Origin: Nitrosopumilus sp.
Lineage (GTDB): Archaea > Thermoproteota > Nitrososphaeria > Nitrososphaerales > Nitrosopumilaceae
Assembly (NCBI GenBank): GCA_029864235.1
Contig: JAOTTW010000004.1
Location: forward strand, 21,765 to 53,764
Length of the DNA: 32,000 nt
Direction of reading: 5' to 3'
Shown: positions 24,247 through 31,255 of the stretch, piece after piece
Layout of the letters: the number at the start of each line of letters is the position of its first letter
How positions within the stretch are numbered: position 1 is the first letter of the stretch
Notes under the pieces: generated by a model
Databases searched by the model: none
What the model saw: only the letters and a program-made list of their open reading frames with translations
What the model was told of the DNA's origin: nothing
Program-made: the position numbers and the translations under genes

Positions 24247-26962
24247 AATTTCTGATTCTAAGATTTATTCTTTGTTTACAAATTTTGGATTCATTAATCT
24301 CACAGAGATTCAAAAAAAAGCATCACCTCTAGTATTACAAAAAAAGGACTGCCTGATAATTGCTCCAACTGGCTCAGGGAAGACAGAATGTTCAGTAATA
24401 CCGATTTTCTCTCTTGTAAAAAATTCAAAAAAAATTGGTCAAATTAAAGTACTTTACATAACTCCACTAAGAGCATTAAACCGAGATGTATTTAGAAGAA
24501 TAACAAAATATGCACAGACAAATGATTTGTCTATAGAAATTAGACACGGAGACACGACACAAACTGCCAGAAAAAAAATCACTGAAAACCCTCCAGATGT
24601 TTTAATTACAACTCCCGAGACTCTGGTGATTTTACTTACGCAACCAAAGATATTGAATGCATTGTCTGAACTAGAGTGGATTGTTATTGATGAAGTTCAC
24701 GAATTACTTGCCAGCGAACGAGGTACTCAGTTGTCACTAAGCATAGAAAGACTACAACTAGCCTCAAAATTGCCACTAACAAAGATTGGACTGTCTGCAA
24801 CAGTTGGAAATTTTGAAGAAGCAGGCAAGTTTGTAGTGGGTTCAAAAAGAAAGTGCCAAATTGTCAGGGATACATCAATTAGAAAATATGACGTTGAAGT
24901 AAAGTTTGTTGATGGCACAATATCTGATGTGGCAGAAGAGATAATCAAATATGTCCAAGAACAAAATTTGGATTCTCCTGTACTTCTCTTTACAAATACA
25001 AGAGGCGAGGCCGAATTCTTAGCATCAATTCTTAAAGAAAAATCTTCTATAAACATTGAATTACATCATGGTTCATTATCAAAAGAAGTAAGAGAAGACA
25101 CAGAGATTACATTAAGAGAGGGAAAACGTGGAATTGTTGTATGTACTTCTTCTCTAGAATTAGGTTTGGATATAGGATCTATTGAATTAGTCATTCATTA
25201 TGGCTCACCACGTCAAGTATCAAAACTTATTCAAAGAATAGGAAGAAGTAGACATAACAGAGATGCATCTGCAAAAGGTTTGATTATTACAAATAACTCT
25301 GATGACGAATTTGAAGCAAGAGCAATTCTTGATAGAATTCAAGAAGGTTCTATCGAAGAGCAAAAAATTCATGATGGCTCTTTAGATGTTCTTGCACATC
25401 ATCTAGTAGGAATGACAATGCAGATGGGTGAGATCTCTGTTGACTTTGCATTTGAAACTATAACTCATGCATTTCCATTTAGAAATTTACATCTAGATGA
25501 ATTAACTGGAGTTTTAGATTTACTAGACTCTAACTATTTGATTTTTTTTGATAGAACCAAAATGGCTTTTTGGAAAAAAGGCCGTTCTTTCAAATATTAC
25601 TTTGAGAATCTTTCAACCATACCTGACATTTTAAAATTTAAGGTTTTTGATAGTGTGGGAAAGAAAATCATTGGTACCTTGGATCAAAGATTTGTTGGTG
25701 ATTTTGGTGATTCAGGAAATATCTTTGTTCTGAAAGGCTCTCAATGGAGAATTCTTAGCGTAGACGAAAAATCATTATCAGTTAATGTTGAACCGTTTAG
25801 AGGAGGCGGAATCACTGTTCCATACTGGGAGGGTGAAACAATCCCCATTGATTACAATACGGCCAAGAAAGTTGGCCTGTTTCGCACCAAAGTAAAAAAT
25901 GGTTCATTGACTCTAATCAATAAAACTATTGAAAACCTAAGTTTTGAAATACCAAATGAGAATCTCGTAGTAATAGAATCAAGTAAAACACAGGGTTCAA
26001 TTGTAATCCATTCATGTTTTGGAACAAAAATTAACGCGACATTATCAACTTTACTTTCTTCAATGCTTTCTTCAATGTTAGGTTCAATGGTAGATTCAAG
26101 AAGTGATGGATATCGAATAGTTTTGTCTTCCAGATCTAGAATATCTGAAAAACTTTTCTTAGAAGTCTTAAGGGATGATTATGATCTCTATTCTATGGTT
26201 ACTGCTTCCTTAGCAGGAACTCATAATGTTAATTGGAGAACTTGGTGTGTTGCAAAAAAATTTGGTGTTGTTGGACGAGGTGCAATATATGAAAAAAAGT
26301 CTGCTCGATTTTTGTATGAAAGGTATTCTAAAACATCTCTTGTTAAAGAAGCATTACGCGAATTATTCCATGATAAATATGATTTGTCAAATACTGATAA
26401 AATTCTAAAAAAGATAAGAGACAATGAAATTTCTACACAATGGATAGAAGTTGATAAATTTTCAAAACTTGCCGAGCCAATTTTAGATCATACTACAAAA
26501 TATTATTCATCTCCTACAAATCTTGACAAAGGAATTCTTGATCTTGTCAAAGCCAGACTTGAAAAGACCAAGCATCGATTGATATGCGCAAGATGTGGAA
26601 AATGGGAAAAGGTCATTGAAACAAATGAGGTCAAAAATATCTTGATTTGCCCATATTGTAAGGGAAGACAAATCACTGCAACATTCTACTCTGACTATGA
26701 TCTGCCTAAAATTATTCGTAAAAAGCATGATGGAAAAAAGCTTACCTCTGAGGAAAAACACAAGTTTGATCGAGCCTGGAAGGTATCCTCCTTAATTGAA
26801 AATTTTGGAAAGACTGCAATTACTGTAATATCTGGATACGGTGTAGGAGCAGATACTGCAGCTAGAATTTTGCGAAATATGGTTGATAAAGAACACTTAT
26901 TCAAACAAATTTACGAAGCAGAAAGACAGTATGTTGTAACTCGAGGATTTTGGGATTCTTAG
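24212..26962 (+). CDS. lhr: Lhr-type ATP-dependent SF2 helicase (DEVH box) with C-terminal zinc ribbon
   Basis: APTGSGKTE, DEVHEL, SATVGN, TSSLELGLDIG and QRIGRSRH. A long Lhr-style C-terminal extension contains CARCG...CPYCKG. Confidence 0.85.
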   Translation: MKEHNQIQQENKISDSKIYSLFTNFGFINLTEIQKKASPLVLQKKDCLIIAPTGSGKTECSVIPIFSLVKNSKKIGQIKVLYITPLRALNRDVFRRITKYAQTNDLSIEIRHGDTTQTARKKITENPPDVLITTPETLVILLTQPKILNALSELEWIVIDEVHELLASERGTQLSLSIERLQLASKLPLTKIGLSATVGNFEEAGKFVVGSKRKCQIVRDTSIRKYDVEVKFVDGTISDVAEEIIKYVQEQNLDSPVLLFTNTRGEAEFLASILKEKSSINIELHHGSLSKEVREDTEITLREGKRGIVVCTSSLELGLDIGSIELVIHYGSPRQVSKLIQRIGRSRHNRDASAKGLIITNNSDDEFEARAILDRIQEGSIEEQKIHDGSLDVLAHHLVGMTMQMGEISVDFAFETITHAFPFRNLHLDELTGVLDLLDSNYLIFFDRTKMAFWKKGRSFKYYFENLSTIPDILKFKVFDSVGKKIIGTLDQRFVGDFGDSGNIFVLKGSQWRILSVDEKSLSVNVEPFRGGGITVPYWEGETIPIDYNTAKKVGLFRTKVKNGSLTLINKTIENLSFEIPNENLVVIESSKTQGSIVIHSCFGTKINATLSTLLSSMLSSMLGSMVDSRSDGYRIVLSSRSRISEKLFLEVLRDDYDLYSMVTASLAGTHNVNWRTWCVAKKFGVVGRGAIYEKKSARFLYERYSKTSLVKEALRELFHDKYDLSNTDKILKKIRDNEISTQWIEVDKFSKLAEPILDHTTKYYSSPTNLDKGILDLVKARLEKTKHRLICARCGKWEKVIETNEVKNILICPYCKGRQITATFYSDYDLPKIIRKKHDGKKLTSEEKHKFDRAWKVSSLIENFGKTAITVISGYGVGADTAARILRNMVDKEHLFKQIYEAERQYVVTRGFWDS

Positions 26963-28356
26963 TTCTTCTTTGTGACTTTTGAAAACGGTGTTAGAAACAA
27001 CTCTATTCTTCCTTCTAAACCTGCTTTTGCACTCAAACCTGTTACAGAAATGATTTCACCCAACTCACATTTGTCAACAAGTCTAGCCTGATTTCTCCAG
27101 CCTTTGATCCAAATTTGACCCGTATCATCTTCAACAAATACTTCAGATAATGAAATTGATTCTCCAGACTTTGTTTGAACTTCCCTCCTTTCAGGGACTC
27201 TCAAAACTATTGCTTCGATACAATAGTCTCTATCTACTTTAACATCACTAATTTTTGTTCTAATCTGAGACAATGATGGAATGGATTCATCGTTTTCTAG
27301 CTTTCTTACAAATGAATTACTATCTAAAGTAACTGAATTTCCATATACTTTTGATGGCATACATTCTATCACGTCTCCCTCATTGCAAATACTTGTTGAA
27401 TTAGAATAATCACTAATATTGTACAGATTTTTCTTGTTATCAACTGCTAAAATCATATTGTTTCCATTATCTGCTGTAGCAATAGACAAAACTCTTGTAA
27501 TGAGTGGTTCTGCTTCTTTTCCTCCTTCTATATTGATCATAGTAGATTCATTACCATGAATCTCTGATCCTTGATTCCCTGGTCTTACTTTGACTCCTAA
27601 CAATCTTACTTTTGCTCCTTGGGAAATCATATTTGGTAATTCACTCTCATCTTTCCCCCAAAGAACAACTCTCATACTTGTTCCATCCTTGCCTTTTAGT
27701 CTCATTCTAAGTGCCTTCCCAGGCTCACCACGAGAATTTGTAAAGTTCATAGTATTTACCATACCGTCAATAATACCTGAAACTACTAGATCTTTTTGGC
27801 CTTCCTGAATCTCACTTACATCTTTTGCAATTTTCTCTATTGTAGGAATGTCACTATCGTTATCGACTGCTTCGATATTAGAGCCAGAACCTATGTTGAT
27901 TGTTGGAGAACCATTAAGGTCTGATTTCACATAGGCCTTGATAATTTTTATCAAATCACCTGGCTTCAGATTTTCAATTCCTGGAAGATTTGCTTTTTCA
28001 TCCCAAAGTTTTACGCTTGCTGTAGAGTTTGCATCATACACTGTCATTGATCTGAGATAAAATGGTGAACCATCTTTTCGGGAATATTGTTTTGCTGGCG
28101 ATACATTAAGAACTCTAGTTTCAAGTGAAATTTCCTTTGCACCTGCATAAAGATCCTTTAATCCCATCTCGACTTTTAGTGGTTCTGATAATGAAATTCC
28201 ATAATCTGATGCGATCAGAAACAGTGCTCCTTGATCTGTCAGATATCCTGCACCAATCTTTTCTTTCTTTTGTTTAATTTGCTCTTCAATATCAGAACGG
28301 GTTAATTCTGGTTTTTGTTCTAGTAATTTTTGTAAAAGTTCATCAAATTCAGACAA
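26959..28356 (-). CDS. Replication protein A (multi-OB-fold ssDNA-binding protein)
   Basis: N-terminal helical segment (LTDQGALFLIASDYGISL) like euryarchaeal-type RPA, followed by about 3-4 repeated OB-fold-like units (e.g. VKLWDEKA, VVLWGKDE, IWIKGWRNQA). TTG start. Confidence 0.65.
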   Translation of the reverse strand: MSEFDELLQKLLEQKPELTRSDIEEQIKQKKEKIGAGYLTDQGALFLIASDYGISLSEPLKVEMGLKDLYAGAKEISLETRVLNVSPAKQYSRKDGSPFYLRSMTVYDANSTASVKLWDEKANLPGIENLKPGDLIKIIKAYVKSDLNGSPTINIGSGSNIEAVDNDSDIPTIEKIAKDVSEIQEGQKDLVVSGIIDGMVNTMNFTNSRGEPGKALRMRLKGKDGTSMRVVLWGKDESELPNMISQGAKVRLLGVKVRPGNQGSEIHGNESTMINIEGGKEAEPLITRVLSIATADNGNNMILAVDNKKNLYNISDYSNSTSICNEGDVIECMPSKVYGNSVTLDSNSFVRKLENDESIPSLSQIRTKISDVKVDRDYCIEAIVLRVPERREVQTKSGESISLSEVFVEDDTGQIWIKGWRNQARLVDKCELGEIISVTGLSAKAGLEGRIELFLTPFSKVTKKN

Positions 28357-28380
28357 ATCATTGTGTCTAAACTAGGTGTA

Positions 28381-28388
28381 TTAATAAA
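28381..28388 (-). promoter_or_regulatory. TATA-box-like element for the RPA gene
   Basis: The minus strand reads TTTATTAA, ending 25 nt upstream of the TTG start at 28356. It lies inside the 46-nt gap before the polB fragment. Confidence 0.3.
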
Positions 28389-28402
28389 AATTTCATCTTT
28401 AT

Positions 28403-29152
28403 TTGAATATTTTACTGGATATTCGATCGTTAGATCGCAAGAAAACTTGCTCTGTTACATTACAAGAACTTCAAGCCTGCGAAAGTAAAACCTTCTACAG
28501 GATTCTTGAAGGATACCAGTTTATACCCAATTCAGATATTTATCCATACCGTGAATTTATTCAAAATCTATATCAGAAAAGAATGGAACTAAAGGAACGG
28601 AACAATCCTTTACAATTACCAATCAAGATTATTCTGAATTCTATTTACGGTAAGACAGGACAAAGTATAGACCATAAGATTGGAAATTTGTTCAATCCTG
28701 TGATTTTTGCCTTTATCACTGGGTTTACACGTGCCCAATTGTATGATTTTGTGCGTAAACATGACATTGAGAAGGATGTGGTGTTCTTTGCCACTGATTC
28801 CATATGTACAACCAAGAAATTAGATGTGAATTCTACCATGCTAGGTGATTTTTCGTTTGACAATGAGTCTGATGATGTGTTTGTGCTACAGAATGGGTTC
28901 TATAGATTCAATGGTAAATGGAAACAAAGAGAATTAGGAAAACTAAATGGAAAAGAAATTGAACATCTAGAAACATTTGAGAAGAATGGTAGATTGTACT
29001 ATAGTTTTGTTGTAAATAGAAATAATAGACTACGTTCTTCTATTCTTCAAAATAGAATCAAAGATATTGGGAAGGTTAAACCAGAGATACGAGAGTTTAA
29101 TCTAAATGCAGACAGGAAGAGGTTTTGGTTGGGAAGGATTAAGTATGGATGA
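28403..29152 (+). pseudogene. Orphan C-terminal fragment of a family-B DNA polymerase (protein-primed/MGE type); exonuclease domain missing
   Basis: Motif B is KIILNSIYGKTGQ. Motif C is degenerate, FFATDSICT, where the expected YxDTDS has lost its first Asp. The open frame begins only at 28388, after a TAA, with LDIRSL at the edge, possibly a decayed motif A. The only start is TTG, and 249 aa compares with at least 550 aa for intact enzymes. Confidence 0.7.
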
Positions 29153-29217
29153 TAGAATTATGAATGAGTCTGTGCCTTTATCTATGAATTATTTCAAGAG
29201 AGAAATTCTGAAAAAAA

Positions 29218-29580
29218 TTAAATCGCGTTAATAGAATTCTCAAGATCGCTTTCTAGTTTTGTCCACCCATTTTCATTGTCGGCATATTTAAAATGTCTAA
29301 TGTGTTTAACGTCAAAAGGTATATCGTCTTCATTTTGAGTAATCATTATTACTTTTTTTCCTATAGTATGGGCAATTCCAAGTTCATAGAAAACATTTGG
29401 GTTTCTACCTGTAACATCAGCTATGATGAATTTGGCTTTGTTGAGCTGTTCCCAAATATCTTCGATTATCACCGTAGGTGTAAAAATATCATCTGCTCTT
29501 AGTACTCTGTAGTCAAGTTTTGTAGCAATAGGTTTAACATTATTTTTATAAATCCTATCAAAATTTTCACGAAATGGCAT
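29218..29580 (-). CDS. Nucleoside 2-deoxyribosyltransferase-like / TIR-like Rossmann domain protein (frame actually open up to 29730)
   Basis: ADVTGRNPNVFYELGIAHTIGKKVIMI...IPFD matches the NDT/TIR-like family core with the conserved Glu. The annotated ATG sits inside the conserved first strand CFVIMPF, so the true N-terminus lies upstream. Confidence 0.65.
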   Translation of the reverse strand: MPFRENFDRIYKNNVKPIATKLDYRVLRADDIFTPTVIIEDIWEQLNKAKFIIADVTGRNPNVFYELGIAHTIGKKVIMITQNEDDIPFDVKHIRHFKYADNENGWTKLESDLENSINAI

Positions 29581-29730
29581 AATTACAAAACATAAATTAT
29601 CTTCAATGGAAAATTCTCTTCCTTGAAAAATAGGATTAATTCTAACAAGTTTTGCGTTCTTTTCTGCCTGTAATATTGTCGTATTAATTGCATTATCTGC
29701 AACTTGTGTTAATAATTTTTCTCTAGAATT

Positions 29731-30105
29731 TTAATCCATTTCTATAATGTTAAGTGGAAAATGAACATACCAAACTTTATCCCATCCTAATTGTTGTGCA
29801 ATACTTTGATTTAATGACTCAATTGTAGGTTCCGGAATATTATCTCGAAAATCATGCCATAATTGTGAGGATGTTCCACCAGACAAAGTTGAAAATGCAA
29901 AAAATATAGTATTCTTTGTAAGTATACCTATGATGTTAAATGGTTTGAAAATAGTAAAAACAAATTTGTTAATCCCTTTCTCAGTACATTTGTTCTCGAG
30001 TGTGTTTCCAAATTCATTTATAATTTTCGTCATTTCGTTACGTAACTTTTCATCGTTTAGTGAACCTCCCACTGATGAAATTGAACTCCAACTAACAGGT
30101 GACAT
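29731..30105 (-). CDS. Hypothetical protein (124 aa), same frame as the downstream NDT/TIR-like ORF and separated from it by one TAA
   Basis: ATG-initiated ORF with no motif I recognise. It ends at TAA 29733-29731, and the frame continues stop-free into 29218-29580. Confidence 0.45.
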   Translation of the reverse strand: MSPVSWSSISSVGGSLNDEKLRNEMTKIINEFGNTLENKCTEKGINKFVFTIFKPFNIIGILTKNTIFFAFSTLSGGTSSQLWHDFRDNIPEPTIESLNQSIAQQLGWDKVWYVHFPLNIIEMD

Positions 30106-30189
30106 ATACTTCCGTTAAATTATAGATAATTATTGATTTTCTTTTGTGAACCTTACCTTTCAAAACATAGCACAAATTTACGCCTGTGA

Positions 30190-30199
30190 GGGGGGGGGG
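30190..30199. repeat. G10 homopolymer tract in a divergent intergenic region
   Basis: The sequence is gtgaGGGGGGGGGGaattc. It is the only long G/C run I saw in this AT-rich window. Confidence 0.9.
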
Positions 30200-30316: not shown

Positions 30317-31255
30317 GTGAATTGTATTTCAGCTAAAAATCTATCAAAATCTTACGGTTCAGTAAGGGCAGTTAATGAGATCAATCTATCTGTAAAATCA
30401 GGTCAAGTCTTTGGATTTTTAGGACCAAATGGAGCTGGAAAATCTACTGCAATAAAATTACTAACAACATTAATCCCACCTTCAAAAGGCTCTCTTTCTA
30501 TTCTTGGGGTTGATGCTATCAAAAATCCTCTAGATGTACGTCATAAAATTGGAGTTGTTTTACAGCAACCAAGCTACGAGCCAACTCTTTCTGTTGAAAA
30601 ATCTCTTGAAAAATATGGAATGATGTGGGATGTACCAAAAGCTGAGCGAATAAAAAGAATGGAGCAGCTAATACAAGATTTTGATCTAGGTGAAATTAGA
30701 AAGAAAAGAAATGAGGATCTCTCAATTGGTCAGAGACGACGAGTACAGGTAGCTCGAGAATTTATGCATGACATGGATTTACTATTCCTTGATGAACCAA
30801 CTGTAGGTTTGGATCCTAGTACAAGAAGAAAATTACTAGACTATCTGAAAAATAAGGTAAGTACTGGACTGACCATCTTTTACACCACTCACGTATTGAC
30901 TGAAGCTGAGTATCTGTGCGATGAAATTGCAATTATTGATAAAGGAAAAATCCTTACAGTAGCTTCCCCAGATTCACTAAAAACTAAATTTGGAAAAGAA
31001 AAAACAATCAAAATTCATATAATTACTAAAGAAGATGAAATTTCTCACGTTCTCTCAGGTATCAAGGATTGTAAAATAGACTTTAACAGTGGAACAAACA
31101 TTACTATTCATTCTCATGAATCAGAGCTAGTCTTACTCCAAGTTCTTAAGGCTCTCAATGAAAATGAGATTGAAATTGAAGACCTTTCTGCAGTACCAAC
31201 AAATCTCGAAGAAATATTTCTAAAAATGGTGGAGGACAATGCATCCAATCATTAG
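30317..31255 (+). CDS. ABC transporter ATP-binding protein (ABC-2/DrrA-like exporter type)
   Basis: Walker A GPNGAGKST, signature LSIGQRRR, Walker B LLFLDEPTVGLD and H-loop TTHVL. GTG start. Confidence 0.92.
   Translation: MNCISAKNLSKSYGSVRAVNEINLSVKSGQVFGFLGPNGAGKSTAIKLLTTLIPPSKGSLSILGVDAIKNPLDVRHKIGVVLQQPSYEPTLSVEKSLEKYGMMWDVPKAERIKRMEQLIQDFDLGEIRKKRNEDLSIGQRRRVQVAREFMHDMDLLFLDEPTVGLDPSTRRKLLDYLKNKVSTGLTIFYTTHVLTEAEYLCDEIAIIDKGKILTVASPDSLKTKFGKEKTIKIHIITKEDEISHVLSGIKDCKIDFNSGTNITIHSHESELVLLQVLKALNENEIEIEDLSAVPTNLEEIFLKMVEDNASNH

What the first reader, a model, noticed from the sequence alone, without database searches (positions are those of the whole stretch)
29218..30105. Unknown N-terminal domain plus NDT/TIR-like effector domain, split by a single in-frame TAA
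On the minus strand, the 124-aa ORF starting at 30105 ends at TAA (29733-29731). The same frame then stays open for 50 more codons (NSREKLLTQVADNAINTTILQAEKNAKLVRINPIFQGREFSIEDNLCFVI). These contain no in-frame ATG, GTG or TTG, and they run straight into the ATG at 29580. That ATG sits in the middle of CFVIMPF, the first beta-strand normally conserved in nucleoside-2-deoxyribosyltransferase-like/TIR-like Rossmann domains. The core NPNVFYELGIAHTIGKKVIMI follows. The locus therefore reads as one ~295-codon two-domain gene, an uncharacterised putative sensor domain, a helical linker and an NDT/TIR-like domain, broken by one nonsense codon. The alternatives are a sequencing error or an unusual two-piece expression. 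TIR and NDT-like domains are recurrent NAD+/nucleotide-processing effectors in prokaryotic conflict systems, and the N-terminal domain matches nothing I recognise. This is my best candidate for an undescribed, possibly decaying, defence-type module in an ammonia-oxidising archaeon.
Basis: partly seen in the sequence, partly recalled or inferred. Interest (0 to 1): 0.72.

Follow-up and report, generated by a model that had tools for sequence, protein, structure and literature searches.

The report
Broken NDT/TIR-like defence gene in Nitrosopumilus
The two short reading frames are one two-domain gene, an unknown sensor-like domain joined to a nucleotide/NAD-cleaving NDT/TIR-like domain. A real single-base nonsense mutation recently broke it, and it sits in a swap-in/swap-out slot that holds other defence-type genes in sister strains.

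Summary
Window 30105-29218 (minus strand) is one 295-codon gene cut by TAA at 29733-29731.

- **An intact allele exists.** It is 99.7% identical in DNA, has TCA (Ser) at that codon and lies in the same gene neighbourhood. Most of the 120 best-scoring homologues are uninterrupted two-domain proteins.
- **The stop is real.** Seven further contigs from seven samples carry it.
- **The C-terminal domain.** It has the NDT/DNPH1/TIR fold with an invariant Glu at the catalytic position, but scores below Pfam's NDT cut-off.
- **The N-terminal domain.** It models confidently but matches no Pfam, PDB or viral structure, and occurs almost only with this C-module.
- **The location.** Gene and a protein-primed DNA polymerase remnant fill a variable slot between an ABC-transporter gene and an RPA-like gene. 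In most of 80 related loci these genes lie 74-326 bp apart. In sister strains the slot holds a DUF4062 (TIR-like NADase family) gene, a DUF4145 (HEPN) gene, or nothing.
- **Selection and decay.** The gene evolved under purifying selection (dN/dS 0.18), yet three independent lesions occur in this clade.

Most likely it is a recently inactivated single-protein sensor-effector defence gene. Its function remains untested.

The parts
29218..30105 (-). The whole interrupted gene: 295 sense codons plus the terminal stop, with one internal TAA
   Evidence: Translation. The 99.7%-identical uninterrupted allele P0001 in L001/L002. Full-length homologues.
29734..30105 (-). N-terminal domain (residues 1-124), uncharacterised, topology beta-alpha-beta-beta-beta-alpha-beta. 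This is the only part the broken allele can still make intact.
   Evidence: AlphaFold pLDDT 91.2, pTM 0.83. No Pfam, NCBIfam or PADLOC hit. No PDB or BFVD Foldseek match. Only 22 hits among 1.84 billion representatives.
29731..29733 (-). Premature TAA at codon 125. The intact allele has TCA (Ser), a C->A change at 29732. The stop falls at the boundary between the N-domain and the linker helix.
   Evidence: The same TAA is present in L010-L016.
29605..29730 (-). Linker, residues 126-167: a long helix (125-150) followed by the conserved motif V-R-I-N-P-I-F-x-G-R-x-F, which always precedes the C-domain, including in proteins with other N-domains.
   Evidence: Secondary structure. Conservation of P158, F160, G162 and R163. 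dN/dS 0.16 against L178. The motif is also present in P0072, P0077 and L020-L058.
29221..29604 (-). NDT/DNPH1/TIR-like Rossmann domain (residues 168-295) with core motif NPNVFYELGIAHTIGK. The predicted catalytic Glu241 is at 29385-29383.
   Evidence: Foldseek pdb. Profile against PDB. PF05014 at 18.3 bits, below the cut-off. PADLOC PDLC00733. Invariant columns. Coordinates.
29218..29580 (-). The 120-codon ORF left downstream of the stop. It starts at Met176, just after strand 1, so its product would lack the first strand of the fold.
29575..29577 (-). Codon 177, CCA (Pro) in the window. Pro is invariant across 53 family members. The otherwise intact allele has TCA (Ser) here.
28403..29152 (+). 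[quoted passage not shown] It shares the variable insert with the gene and is taken as a relic of a mobile element.
   Evidence: PF03175 at 33 bits, profile positions 335-393 of 468. tblastn to Acidianus bottle-shaped virus and Streptomyces phage polymerases. Frameshifted tail compared with L178.
28357..30199 (.). The variable insert between the RPA-like gene (26959-28356, minus strand) and the ABC-transporter ATPase gene (30317-31255, plus strand). Its left edge is at the C-rich tract 30190-30199.
   Evidence: The gap is 1,961 bp here and 74-326 bp in most of 80 related loci. Sister strains carry other cargo.

Best explanation
The locus is a recently inactivated copy of a single-protein sensor-effector conflict (antiviral defence-type) gene.

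Intact form (295 aa). It has three parts: (i) an N-terminal domain of about 124 aa with unknown fold affinity, proposed to be the sensor; (ii) a long helix plus a conserved PIFxGRxF segment; and (iii) a C-terminal Rossmann domain of the NDT/DNPH1/TIR ('TIR-DrHyd-SLOG') class with an invariant Glu.

Proposed mechanism (inferred). The protein is held inactive until the N-domain meets an infection cue, such as a viral protein or a nucleotide-like ligand. The C-domain, probably as an oligomer, then cleaves the N-glycosidic bond of NAD+ or of a nucleotide. This depletes the pool and arrests the infected cell.

In this genome. A C->A change turned Ser125 (TCA) into TAA exactly at the domain boundary. 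Only the isolated N-domain can still be made, and the effector cannot. The gene arrived as cargo of, or next to, a mobile element carrying a protein-primed polymerase. It sits in a strain-variable slot where sister strains hold other defence-type genes.

What is shown: the single-gene nature, the reality of the stop, the fold of the C-domain, the conserved Glu, the hot-spot location, past purifying selection and the independent lesions. What is inferred: defence function, sensing by the N-domain, the substrate and the abortive outcome.
For: Single gene and real stop. The uninterrupted allele differs at 3 of 888 nt and is in identical synteny. The TAA is present in 7 further contigs from 7 samples. 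Most of the best 120 homologues cover both halves.

Past function as one unit. dN/dS against the 79%-identical orthologous locus L178 is 0.18 overall (dS 0.58), 0.16 in the linker and 0.13 in the C-domain.

Effector domain. Foldseek gives NDTs, DNPH1 and then TIRs, with E 1.6e-4 and upward and target-normalised TM 0.6-0.73. Glu241 aligns with the Rcl/DNPH1 'YELG' Glu. E241, N237, H246 and K250 are invariant. The PADLOC TIR-effector model matches 52 of 52 members.

Modularity typical of conflict systems. The same C-module is fused to AbiJ_NTD5, Schlafen AlbA_2, REC, TPR and DUF2321 zinc-ribbon domains. It is found on 104 plasmid and 47 phage records. The N-domain once occurs with two predicted TM helices instead (TM helices judged by eye).

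Context. The slot between the ABC and RPA genes is a tight 74-326 bp gap in most related loci, but in sister strains it carries DUF4062 or DUF4145 (HEPN) genes. Homologues elsewhere lie beside a CBASS operon, a methylase/HNH pair and transposases, or beside a Fic gene.

Turnover. There are three independent lesions in this clade: TAA125, P177S at an invariant Pro, and TGA97 in L178. A frameshifted copy occurs elsewhere.

Precedents in the literature. AbiJ-NTD fusions to NDT/TIR effectors (PMC3710099). DrHyd/TIR NADase effectors (PMC9503650). The DUF4062 'Swarozyc' system, a TIR-like NADase activated by a phage portal (10.64898/2026.05.01.722283). The retron Ec86 NDT-like effector that depletes adenine derivatives (10.1101/2023.08.16.553469).
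Against: No experiment or expression data bear on this protein or family.

No conserved partner or trigger was identified. Some homologues sit among housekeeping genes, for example between recR and recO.

The C-domain fails Pfam's gathering thresholds for both NDT and TIR, so substrate and even catalysis are extrapolated from one conserved Glu and the fold.

The sensor role of the N-domain rests only on architecture and on its faster divergence (26% mean identity against 55% for the C-domain).

Guilt by location comes from a handful of sister contigs.

Confidence: 0.62

Rival explanations
1. The split is functional. After the stop the cell makes a free N-domain (124 aa), and perhaps a separate C-piece by re-initiation or TAA read-through. 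The two act together or the N-domain acts alone, for example as a decoy, a regulator or a dominant-negative partner of paralogues.
For: The stop falls exactly at the domain boundary, so the 124-aa product is a complete, confidently modelled domain. The TAA allele was seen on more contigs than the intact one, 8 including the window against 2. No further lesions have accumulated downstream.
Against: The linker holds no in-frame ATG, GTG or TTG. The only start, Met176, yields a product without strand 1 of the Rossmann fold. The best 120 homologues are mostly single chains. The other split copies are broken at different places: TGA97 inside the N-domain in L178, and a frameshift in the linker in L177. 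That pattern is decay, not a conserved two-gene design. Only 3 substitutions separate the alleles, so the absence of further decay carries no information.
Confidence: 0.1
2. The TAA is a sequencing or assembly error, and the gene is intact in the organism.
For: It is a single-base difference from an intact allele.
Against: The identical TAA is present in seven other contigs, assembled independently from seven samples by JGI, ENA submitters and Logan. They carry small differences elsewhere in the gene (positions 105 and 559), so they are not copies of one assembly. TAA and Pro177 always travel together, as do TCA and Ser177, which is the behaviour of true haplotypes.
Confidence: 0.02
3. It is, or was, a housekeeping nucleotide-salvage or nucleotide-cleansing enzyme (NDT or DNPH1-like) with a regulatory N-domain, and has nothing to do with conflict.
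For: The closest solved structures are metabolic NDTs and DNPH1. One bacterial homologue lies between recR and recO.
Against: It is absent from most of the 80 related Nitrosopumilaceae loci and sits in a strain-variable insert beside a mobile-element relic. Its distribution across phyla is patchy. The C-module occurs on plasmids and temperate phages and is fused to AbiJ_NTD5 and Schlafen domains. It has been lost repeatedly. It scores below the NDT family threshold.
Confidence: 0.1
4. It is the effector or toxin subunit of a multi-gene system, such as a nucleotide-signalling system of the CBASS or Thoeris type or a toxin-antitoxin pair, rather than an autonomous single-gene system. The N-domain would then bind a second messenger or a partner protein.
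For: The best defence-library match is to an 'Effector TIR' model. One homologue is 5 kb from a CBASS operon. In 4 of about 21 two-domain loci a small Mrr_cat-like nuclease gene follows directly. Conserved GG, Trp and Asp positions in the N-domain could form a ligand pocket (my inference).
Against: All-against-all clustering of neighbours in 87 loci found no partner shared by more than 4 loci. The CBASS operon in L006 already has its own patatin effector. In the window and its sister contigs the gene stands alone between a polymerase remnant and core genes.
Confidence: 0.12

Closest known systems
Nucleoside 2-deoxyribosyltransferase / DNPH1 (Rcl) superfamily (Pfam PF05014, clan Nribosyltransf; 'DrHyd' of Burroughs and Aravind)
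   Same: The C-domain has the same three-layer Rossmann-like fold. These are the best Foldseek hits (6evs, 2a0k, 8rpt). The invariant Glu241 in 'FYELG' aligns with the 'GYELG' Glu of Rcl/DNPH1. That this Glu is the catalytic residue is established knowledge for NDT Glu98 (cited in PMC3710099).
   Different: It scores 18 bits against a 28.8-bit family threshold. It lacks the Gly-rich or phosphate-binding loop after strand 1 and has 'MPFxEPF' instead. It carries a conserved PIFxGRxF lead-in and a foreign N-domain. It is mobile and strain-variable rather than metabolic.
Swarozyc (DUF4062 TIR-like NADase plus auxiliary domain; preprint 10.64898/2026.05.01.722283)
   Same: One polypeptide combines a TIR/NDT-class domain bearing a catalytic Glu with a non-catalytic auxiliary domain, and is reported to be activated by binding a phage structural protein. 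A DUF4062 gene occupies the very same genomic slot in a sister strain (L099).
   Different: The window protein has no PF13271 match. The domain order is reversed, with the enzyme C-terminal here. The auxiliary domain is unrelated. No activity or trigger is known.
AbiJ-type and related Abi proteins (variable N-terminal domain plus toxin domain; PMC3710099)
   Same: The logic is the same: a variable N-terminal 'NTD' fused to a C-terminal enzymatic toxin. Close homologues of this C-module carry AbiJ_NTD5 (P0072, 38 bits). The paper lists fusions of AbiJ NTDs to NDT and TIR domains.
   Different: The N-domain here is not an AbiJ NTD: it has no Pfam hit and is alpha/beta rather than mostly helical. 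The effector is not HEPN.
NDT-like or CMP-hydrolase-like effectors of multi-component systems (retron Ec86/Eco1 effector, 10.1101/2023.08.16.553469; Thoeris type VIII ThsI, 10.64898/2025.12.03.692087; PADLOC 'Effector TIR' PDLC00733)
   Same: An NDT-superfamily domain is used as the killing or depleting module. PDLC00733 matches at E about 1e-14 over most of the C-domain.
   Different: There is no reverse transcriptase, ncRNA, TIR signal-maker or CD-NTase next to the gene in the window or its sister contigs. No PADLOC model other than PDLC00733 matched at E up to 10, so no retron effector model did either. Only profile positions 260-359 of 388 are matched.

Membership tests
NDT/DNPH1 superfamily (PF05014 and clan) | Rossmann-like NDT fold | tested here: met
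   The AlphaFold model has pLDDT 91.9. Foldseek pdb top hits are NDTs and DNPH1, at E from 1.6e-4 and TM (target-normalised) 0.49-0.73.
NDT/DNPH1 superfamily (PF05014 and clan) | Catalytic Glu at the start of the helix after strand 3 | tested here: met
   E241 is invariant in 53 sequences. It aligns with the Glu of 'GYELG' in Rcl/DNPH1.
NDT/DNPH1 superfamily (PF05014 and clan) | Score at or above Pfam's gathering threshold for PF05014 | tested here: not met
   18.3 bits against 28.8. 38 of 52 relatives match weakly, with a best E of 1.9e-4.
NDT/DNPH1 superfamily (PF05014 and clan) | N-glycosidic bond cleavage or transfer activity | not testable with these tools
   Needs an enzyme assay.
TIR domain (STIR clan) NADases | TIR fold similarity | tested here: met
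   TLR1, TLR10, MAL, SPARTA TIR-APAZ and SARM1 chains appear at E 1.3e-3 to 3e-3, ranking below the top NDT and DNPH1 hits.
TIR domain (STIR clan) NADases | Match to a TIR sequence model | tested here: inconclusive
   Pfam TIR_2 matches only 1 of 52 members, at E 0.009. The PADLOC 'Effector TIR' model PDLC00733 matches 52 of 52 at about 1e-14, over profile positions 260-359 of 388.
TIR domain (STIR clan) NADases | NAD+ hydrolysis or cyclisation | not testable with these tools
   Needs an enzyme assay.
Swarozyc / DUF4062 | PF13271 domain | tested here: not met
   The window protein has no PF13271 hit at E up to 10. The positive control L099 scores 39 bits.
CBASS, Thoeris or retron effector | Adjacent signal-generating or RT partner gene | tested here: not met
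   Neighbours in the window and in L001/L010 are the ABC transporter, the polymerase remnant and the RPA-like gene. No neighbour is shared by more than 4 of 87 loci.
AbiJ-like Abi proteins | AbiJ N-terminal domain (NTD1-5) | tested here: not met
   The N-domain has no Pfam hit. AbiJ_NTD5 is present only in other proteins that share the C-module.
Pseudogene (recent, unitary) | Premature stop relative to intact orthologues, in the same synteny, present in the organism and not an artefact | tested here: met
   TCA->TAA relative to L001/L002. The same stop is present in 7 other contigs. The family is single-chain.
Defence island or variable hot-spot cargo | The same flanking core genes hold alternative defence-type genes, or nothing, in related genomes | tested here: met
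   The gap is 74-326 bp in most of 80 loci. L099 holds DUF4062; L104 holds DUF4145, which is split in L106 (judged by eye); L102 is empty.

The most novel reading that the evidence does not exclude
The 124-aa N-domain may be a new sensor fold. Together with the PIFxGRxF-NDT/TIR-like module it would define an undescribed, autonomous single-gene antiviral system spread patchily across bacteria and archaea. The ABC/RPA intergenic slot of marine Nitrosopumilus would be a small defence hot spot seeded by an element carrying a protein-primed polymerase. That would offer a first handle on how ammonia-oxidising archaea exchange and lose immune genes.
Probability: 0.4. Interest if true: 0.62.

Novelty: new variant of a known kind. 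Interest (0 to 1): 0.45.

Why it matters
Ammonia-oxidising archaea are among the most abundant microbes in the ocean, yet their antiviral repertoire is poorly charted. Most defence catalogues are built from bacteria.

This locus gives three things. First, a well-populated but unnamed protein family: an NDT/TIR-class effector with a conserved lead-in motif, fused here to a domain with no recognisable relatives. It can be tested directly with intact homologues. Second, a concrete strain-variable slot in Nitrosopumilus where DUF4062, HEPN and NDT/TIR-like genes replace each other next to a polymerase relic. Third, a clean natural example of defence-gene turnover, with strong past constraint followed by independent recent knock-outs.

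For genome annotation, the two 'hypothetical proteins' of 124 and 120 aa should be merged and flagged as one pseudogene.

Tried and rejected
- **Major capsid protein link.** P0001 gave a weak PF09950 hit (24.1 bits, below the cut-off). Only 1 of 52 family members shows it. Foldseek against PDB and BFVD shows no significant match of any kind, capsid proteins included. I rejected it as chance.
- **Wider search for the N-domain.** Both the word-indexed search with the single sequence and the search with a 30-sequence profile returned only the query's own cluster. This is a limit of the tool. The exhaustive phmmer search gave 22 hits.
- **Conserved partner gene.** Clustering neighbours over 87 loci found only a Mrr_cat-like gene in 4 loci. 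It is not present in the window.
- **Predicting the exact fused window protein.** I used P0001 instead.
- **Look-up of P0030's contig.** Not on record.
- **Casposon identification of the polymerase remnant.** The literature shows that thaumarchaeal family-1 casposons carry such polymerases (PMC6563490). I did not annotate the rest of the window, so I did not look for a Cas1 gene, and I ran no search for terminal inverted repeats. The nearest phage-database hits are distant (about 33% identity). The origin is left open.
Full report
**1. The observation.**
On the minus strand, ATG 30105 opens a 124-codon ORF that stops at TAA 29733-29731. The same frame continues open for 50 codons and reaches the ATG at 29580, which starts a 120-codon ORF ending at 29218. 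None of the 50 linker codons is ATG, GTG or TTG. With a window GC content of 32%, 50 codons stay open by chance with probability about 0.02. The description is accurate. The only correction concerns Met176: it lies just after the first beta strand of the C-domain (residues 168-175 in the model) rather than in its middle.

**2. It is one gene, and the stop is real.**
A search with the conceptual fusion returned 1,790 proteins. Most of the best 120 are single chains of 290-310 aa covering both halves.

The top hit, P0001 (295 aa, 99% identical), is uninterrupted. Its contigs L001 and L002 are 99.3% and 99.7% identical to the window. L001, the longer one, shows the same gene order: ABC permease, ABC ATPase, the gene, a polymerase fragment and an RPA-like gene.

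Within the 888-nt gene the two alleles differ at three bases:
- a synonymous ACA/ACG at codon 35;
- TAA against TCA (Ser) at codon 125, window position 29732;
- CCA (Pro, window) against TCA (Ser) at codon 177.

The exact 124-aa product is on record as 'hypothetical protein OEM18_00615 [Nitrosopumilus sp.]'. It occurs on seven further contigs from seven samples (two JGI, three ENA, two Logan). All carry TAA125 together with Pro177, and they show small differences elsewhere. A sequencing error is therefore excluded. TAA/Pro177 and TCA/Ser177 behave as two haplotypes.

**3. Structure.**
An AlphaFold model of P0001 with 51 homologues is confident (pLDDT 91.9). It has four parts:
- residues 1-124 form an alpha/beta domain with topology beta-alpha-beta-beta-beta-alpha-beta;
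- residues 125-150 form one long helix;
- residues 151-167 form a lower-confidence segment that nevertheless carries the strongly conserved motif VRINPIFxGRxF;
- residues 168-295 form a Rossmann-like domain.

The stop at codon 125 therefore falls exactly at the end of the N-domain. The 120-codon downstream ORF would lack strand 1.

**4. The C-terminal domain.**
Foldseek against the PDB returns nucleoside 2-deoxyribosyltransferases (6evs, 2a0k, 7o62, 8qc0) and DNPH1/Rcl first, at E from 1.6e-4 and target-normalised TM of 0.49-0.73. TIR domains follow: TLR1, TLR10, MAL, SPARTA TIR-APAZ and SARM1.

A family profile against PDB sequences finds only Rcl/DNPH1, weakly (E 0.04). That alignment places the family's invariant Glu241 ('NVFYELG') on the 'VGYELG' Glu of the enzyme.

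Invariant or near-invariant positions are P158, F160, F173, P177, N235, N237, V238, Y240, E241, G243, H246, T247, G249, K250, P263, F264, D265 and Y274.

Sequence-model membership is weak:
- PF05014 scores 18.3 bits against a 28.8-bit threshold.
- TIR_2 appears in 1 of 52 members.
- There is no NCBIfam hit.
- The PADLOC model PDLC00733 ('Effector', TIR) matches all 52 members at about 1e-14, but over only part of the profile.
- Four PHROG families of unknown function match the C-module.

This is thus a divergent, unnamed branch of the NDT/TIR class. That class is the 'TIR-DrHyd-SLOG' grouping of PMC9503650.

**5. The N-terminal domain.**
Modelled alone it is confident (pLDDT 91.2, pTM 0.83). 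It has no Pfam, NCBIfam or PADLOC match. It has no Foldseek neighbour in the PDB (best E 0.12, TM below 0.3) or in BFVD (best E 0.035), and no meaningful PDB sequence match.

An exhaustive phmmer search of 1.84 billion representatives gave only 22 hits. Most of the sequences I inspected (11 fetched, plus P0029 and P0048) have the same two-domain architecture or are truncated copies of it, and three very long multi-stretch hits look spurious. The exceptions are informative:
- P0048 adds a Schlafen AlbA_2 domain in front.
- P0127 and P0130 add unknown N-terminal extensions.
- P0134 replaces the enzyme with two hydrophobic, TM-like helices, judged by eye.

The N-domain diverges much faster than the C-domain, with mean identities of 26% and 55% across the family. 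Near-invariant G77 and D85 and a PLFRPFN motif stand out in the consensus. They could line a binding site, but that is my inference.

**6. The C-module is a promiscuous, mobile effector.**
It always comes with the PIFxGRxF lead-in. It is fused to AbiJ_NTD5 (P0072), REC (P0091), TPR arrays (L039), a DUF2321 zinc ribbon (L036) and many unannotated domains. In a Nitrosopumilaceae MAG (L034) it is N-terminal.

It was detected in at least 576 matched stretches in species-representative genomes, spread across bacterial and archaeal phyla. It was also found on 104 plasmid records and in 47 phage records, mostly temperate Streptococcus and Staphylococcus phages. Wherever it is annotated there, it is called 'hypothetical protein'.

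The full two-domain form is patchy. It occurs in Chloroflexota, Bacteroidota, Alphaproteobacteria, Nitrospirota, Bacillota, Planctomycetota, Methylobacter, Magnetococcales and Polyangiaceae.

Clustering of neighbours over 87 loci found no conserved partner. A small Mrr_cat-like gene follows the gene in four loci only. Individual contexts include a CBASS operon with a methylase/HNH pair and transposases (L006), a Fic gene (L008), and a position between recR and recO (L003).

**7. Genomic setting in Nitrosopumilus.**
I fetched 80 related metagenomic loci with the RPA-like protein as query. In about 60 of them the ABC ATPase gene and the RPA-like gene are divergent neighbours, 74-326 bp apart. 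In the window they are 1,961 bp apart.

In the closest relatives (ABC ATPase 91-96% identical) the same slot differs from strain to strain:

| Locus | Content of the slot |
|---|---|
| L102 | empty (270 bp) |
| L099 | a 331-aa DUF4062 protein (PF13271, 39 bits) |
| L104 | a 218-aa zinc-ribbon/DUF4145 HEPN protein (PF13643, 54 bits) |
| L106 | apparently the same kind of gene split in two (judged by eye from a zinc ribbon and a HEPN-like motif) |
| L098, L100, L105 | other ORFs plus polymerase remnants |

DUF4062 was recently reported as a TIR-like NADase defence system (10.64898/2026.05.01.722283). DUF4145 is a HEPN family linked to abortive infection (PMC3710099).

The flanks of the slot are conserved. 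On the ABC side they run up to a C-rich motif, which in the window is C10 at 30190-30199, the only G/C run of 8 or more in 32 kb. On the other side they cover the roughly 40 bp upstream of the RPA-like gene.

The companion ORF at 28403-29152 is the C-terminal part of a protein-primed family-B polymerase (PF03175, profile positions 335-393 of 468). Its relatives are distant, in Acidianus bottle-shaped viruses and Streptomyces phages. Thaumarchaeal family-1 casposons are known to carry such polymerases (PMC6563490).

**8. Selection and decay.**
L178 is an orthologous locus at 79% nucleotide identity, with the gene and the polymerase remnant in the same arrangement. It has Ser at codon 125 but TGA at codon 97, where the window has TCA.

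Over codons 93-295, dN/dS between the window and L178 is 0.18 (dS 0.58). By segment:

| Segment | dN/dS |
|---|---|
| C-domain (168-295) | 0.13 |
| Linker (126-167) | 0.16 |
| Last 32 codons of the N-domain (93-124) | 0.62 |

The linker would be non-coding if the two ORFs were separate genes. Its low dN/dS shows that the gene was maintained as a single coding unit for most of that divergence.

Three independent lesions are now seen in the clade. They are TAA125, Ser at the invariant Pro177 in the otherwise intact allele, and TGA97. A frameshifted copy exists in an unrelated lineage (L177). Strong constraint followed by repeated recent loss is what is expected of costly, intermittently useful defence genes. 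That last statement is an inference.

**9. Interpretation.**
The best-supported reading is a recently inactivated single-protein sensor-effector gene. It belongs to the broad class in which a variable sensing domain controls an NDT/TIR-type N-glycosidase that depletes NAD+ or nucleotides.

Published analogues include AbiJ-NTD fusions to NDT or TIR domains (PMC3710099) and Swarozyc (10.64898/2026.05.01.722283). The retron Ec86 NDT-like effector (10.1101/2023.08.16.553469) and Thoeris VIII ThsI (10.64898/2025.12.03.692087) are further examples.

The defence function, the role of the N-domain, the substrate and the outcome are all inferred and remain untested. Rival readings are listed separately with their weights: a functional split, a sequencing artefact, a housekeeping enzyme, and an effector of a multi-gene system.

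**10. Verdict.**
In this window the feature itself is a pseudogene, which is ordinary. The family behind it and the hot spot around it are the interesting parts.

The family is widespread and unnamed in Pfam, and the only PADLOC model that matches it is a generic 'Effector TIR' model. It combines an unrecognised N-domain with a divergent NDT/TIR-like module. I rate it a new variant of a known kind, of moderate interest (0.45).

Noticed in passing
window 28403-29152 (+), and 29106-29231 (+): [quoted passage not shown] Compared with L178 its tail is frameshifted in the window: the 41-aa ORF at 29106-29231 carries the continuation '...MNESVPLSMNYF...'. Despite being a fragment, it shows low dN/dS (about 0.08, with dS saturated) against L178. 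That is odd for a relic.
   Followed up: partly
window 30190-30199: A G10 run on the plus strand (C10 on the gene's strand) is the only G/C homopolymer of 8 or more in the 32-kb window (GC 32%). It lies exactly where homology to empty or differently loaded sites ends. A C-rich motif is conserved at this boundary in L098-L105, and one contig (L013) has C8. It could be an attachment or recombination site, or a site where assemblies slip.
   Followed up: partly
L099:1087-2082 (-), L104:545-1201 (-), L106:235-862 (-), L100:515-1435 (-), L102:5731-6001: The same ABC/RPA intergenic slot in sister Nitrosopumilus strains differs from strain to strain. L099 holds a DUF4062 (TIR-like NADase family) gene and L104 a zinc-ribbon/DUF4145 (HEPN) gene. 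L106 holds an apparently split copy of a similar zinc-ribbon/HEPN gene (judged by eye). L100 holds an unannotated 306-aa gene with an RxxxxH-like motif, and L102 is empty. The slot looks like a miniature defence hot spot.
   Followed up: partly
L178:1-614 (ENA ERZ23499443 contig): An orthologue at 79% nucleotide identity carries an independent premature stop: TGA at codon 97, where the window has TCA. It keeps Ser125 and Pro177. This rests on a single 1-kb contig, so the stop is not independently confirmed.
   Followed up: partly
L001:1989-2876 and L002:132-1019: The only uninterrupted allele of this lineage has Ser in place of Pro177. [quoted passage not shown] The 'intact' allele may therefore also be impaired.
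   Followed up: partly
L177:333-1188: In an unrelated lineage the two-domain gene is split by a frameshift or deletion inside the linker. The N-part is P0123 (155 aa), and the C-part follows in another frame.
   Followed up: partly
L005:8886-9407, L018:6865-7386, L031:2661-3188, L030:7136-7357: In a Bacteroidota/Polyangiaceae subgroup a gene of about 173 aa follows the two-domain gene directly. It has a weak Mrr_cat (PD-(D/E)xK restriction endonuclease) match and a 'D...ECK' motif. This may be a two-gene variant of the system.
   Followed up: partly
P0134 (201 aa): The N-domain occurs once with two hydrophobic TM-like helices in place of the NDT/TIR-like domain. This suggests the N-domain can be combined with a different, membrane-type effector.
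   Followed up: no
P0001 residues 41-152: There is a weak Pfam hit to PF09950 'Major capsid protein' (24.1 bits, cut-off 26.8). It was not reproduced in the other 51 family members and not supported by fold search, so it is probably chance.
   Followed up: yes
L034:5989-7143 (uncultured Nitrosopumilaceae MAG): Another ammonia-oxidiser relative carries the same PIFxG...NPNVFYE module at the N-terminus of a 384-aa protein, with an unannotated C-terminal extension of about 250 aa. The domain order is the reverse of the window gene.
   Followed up: no
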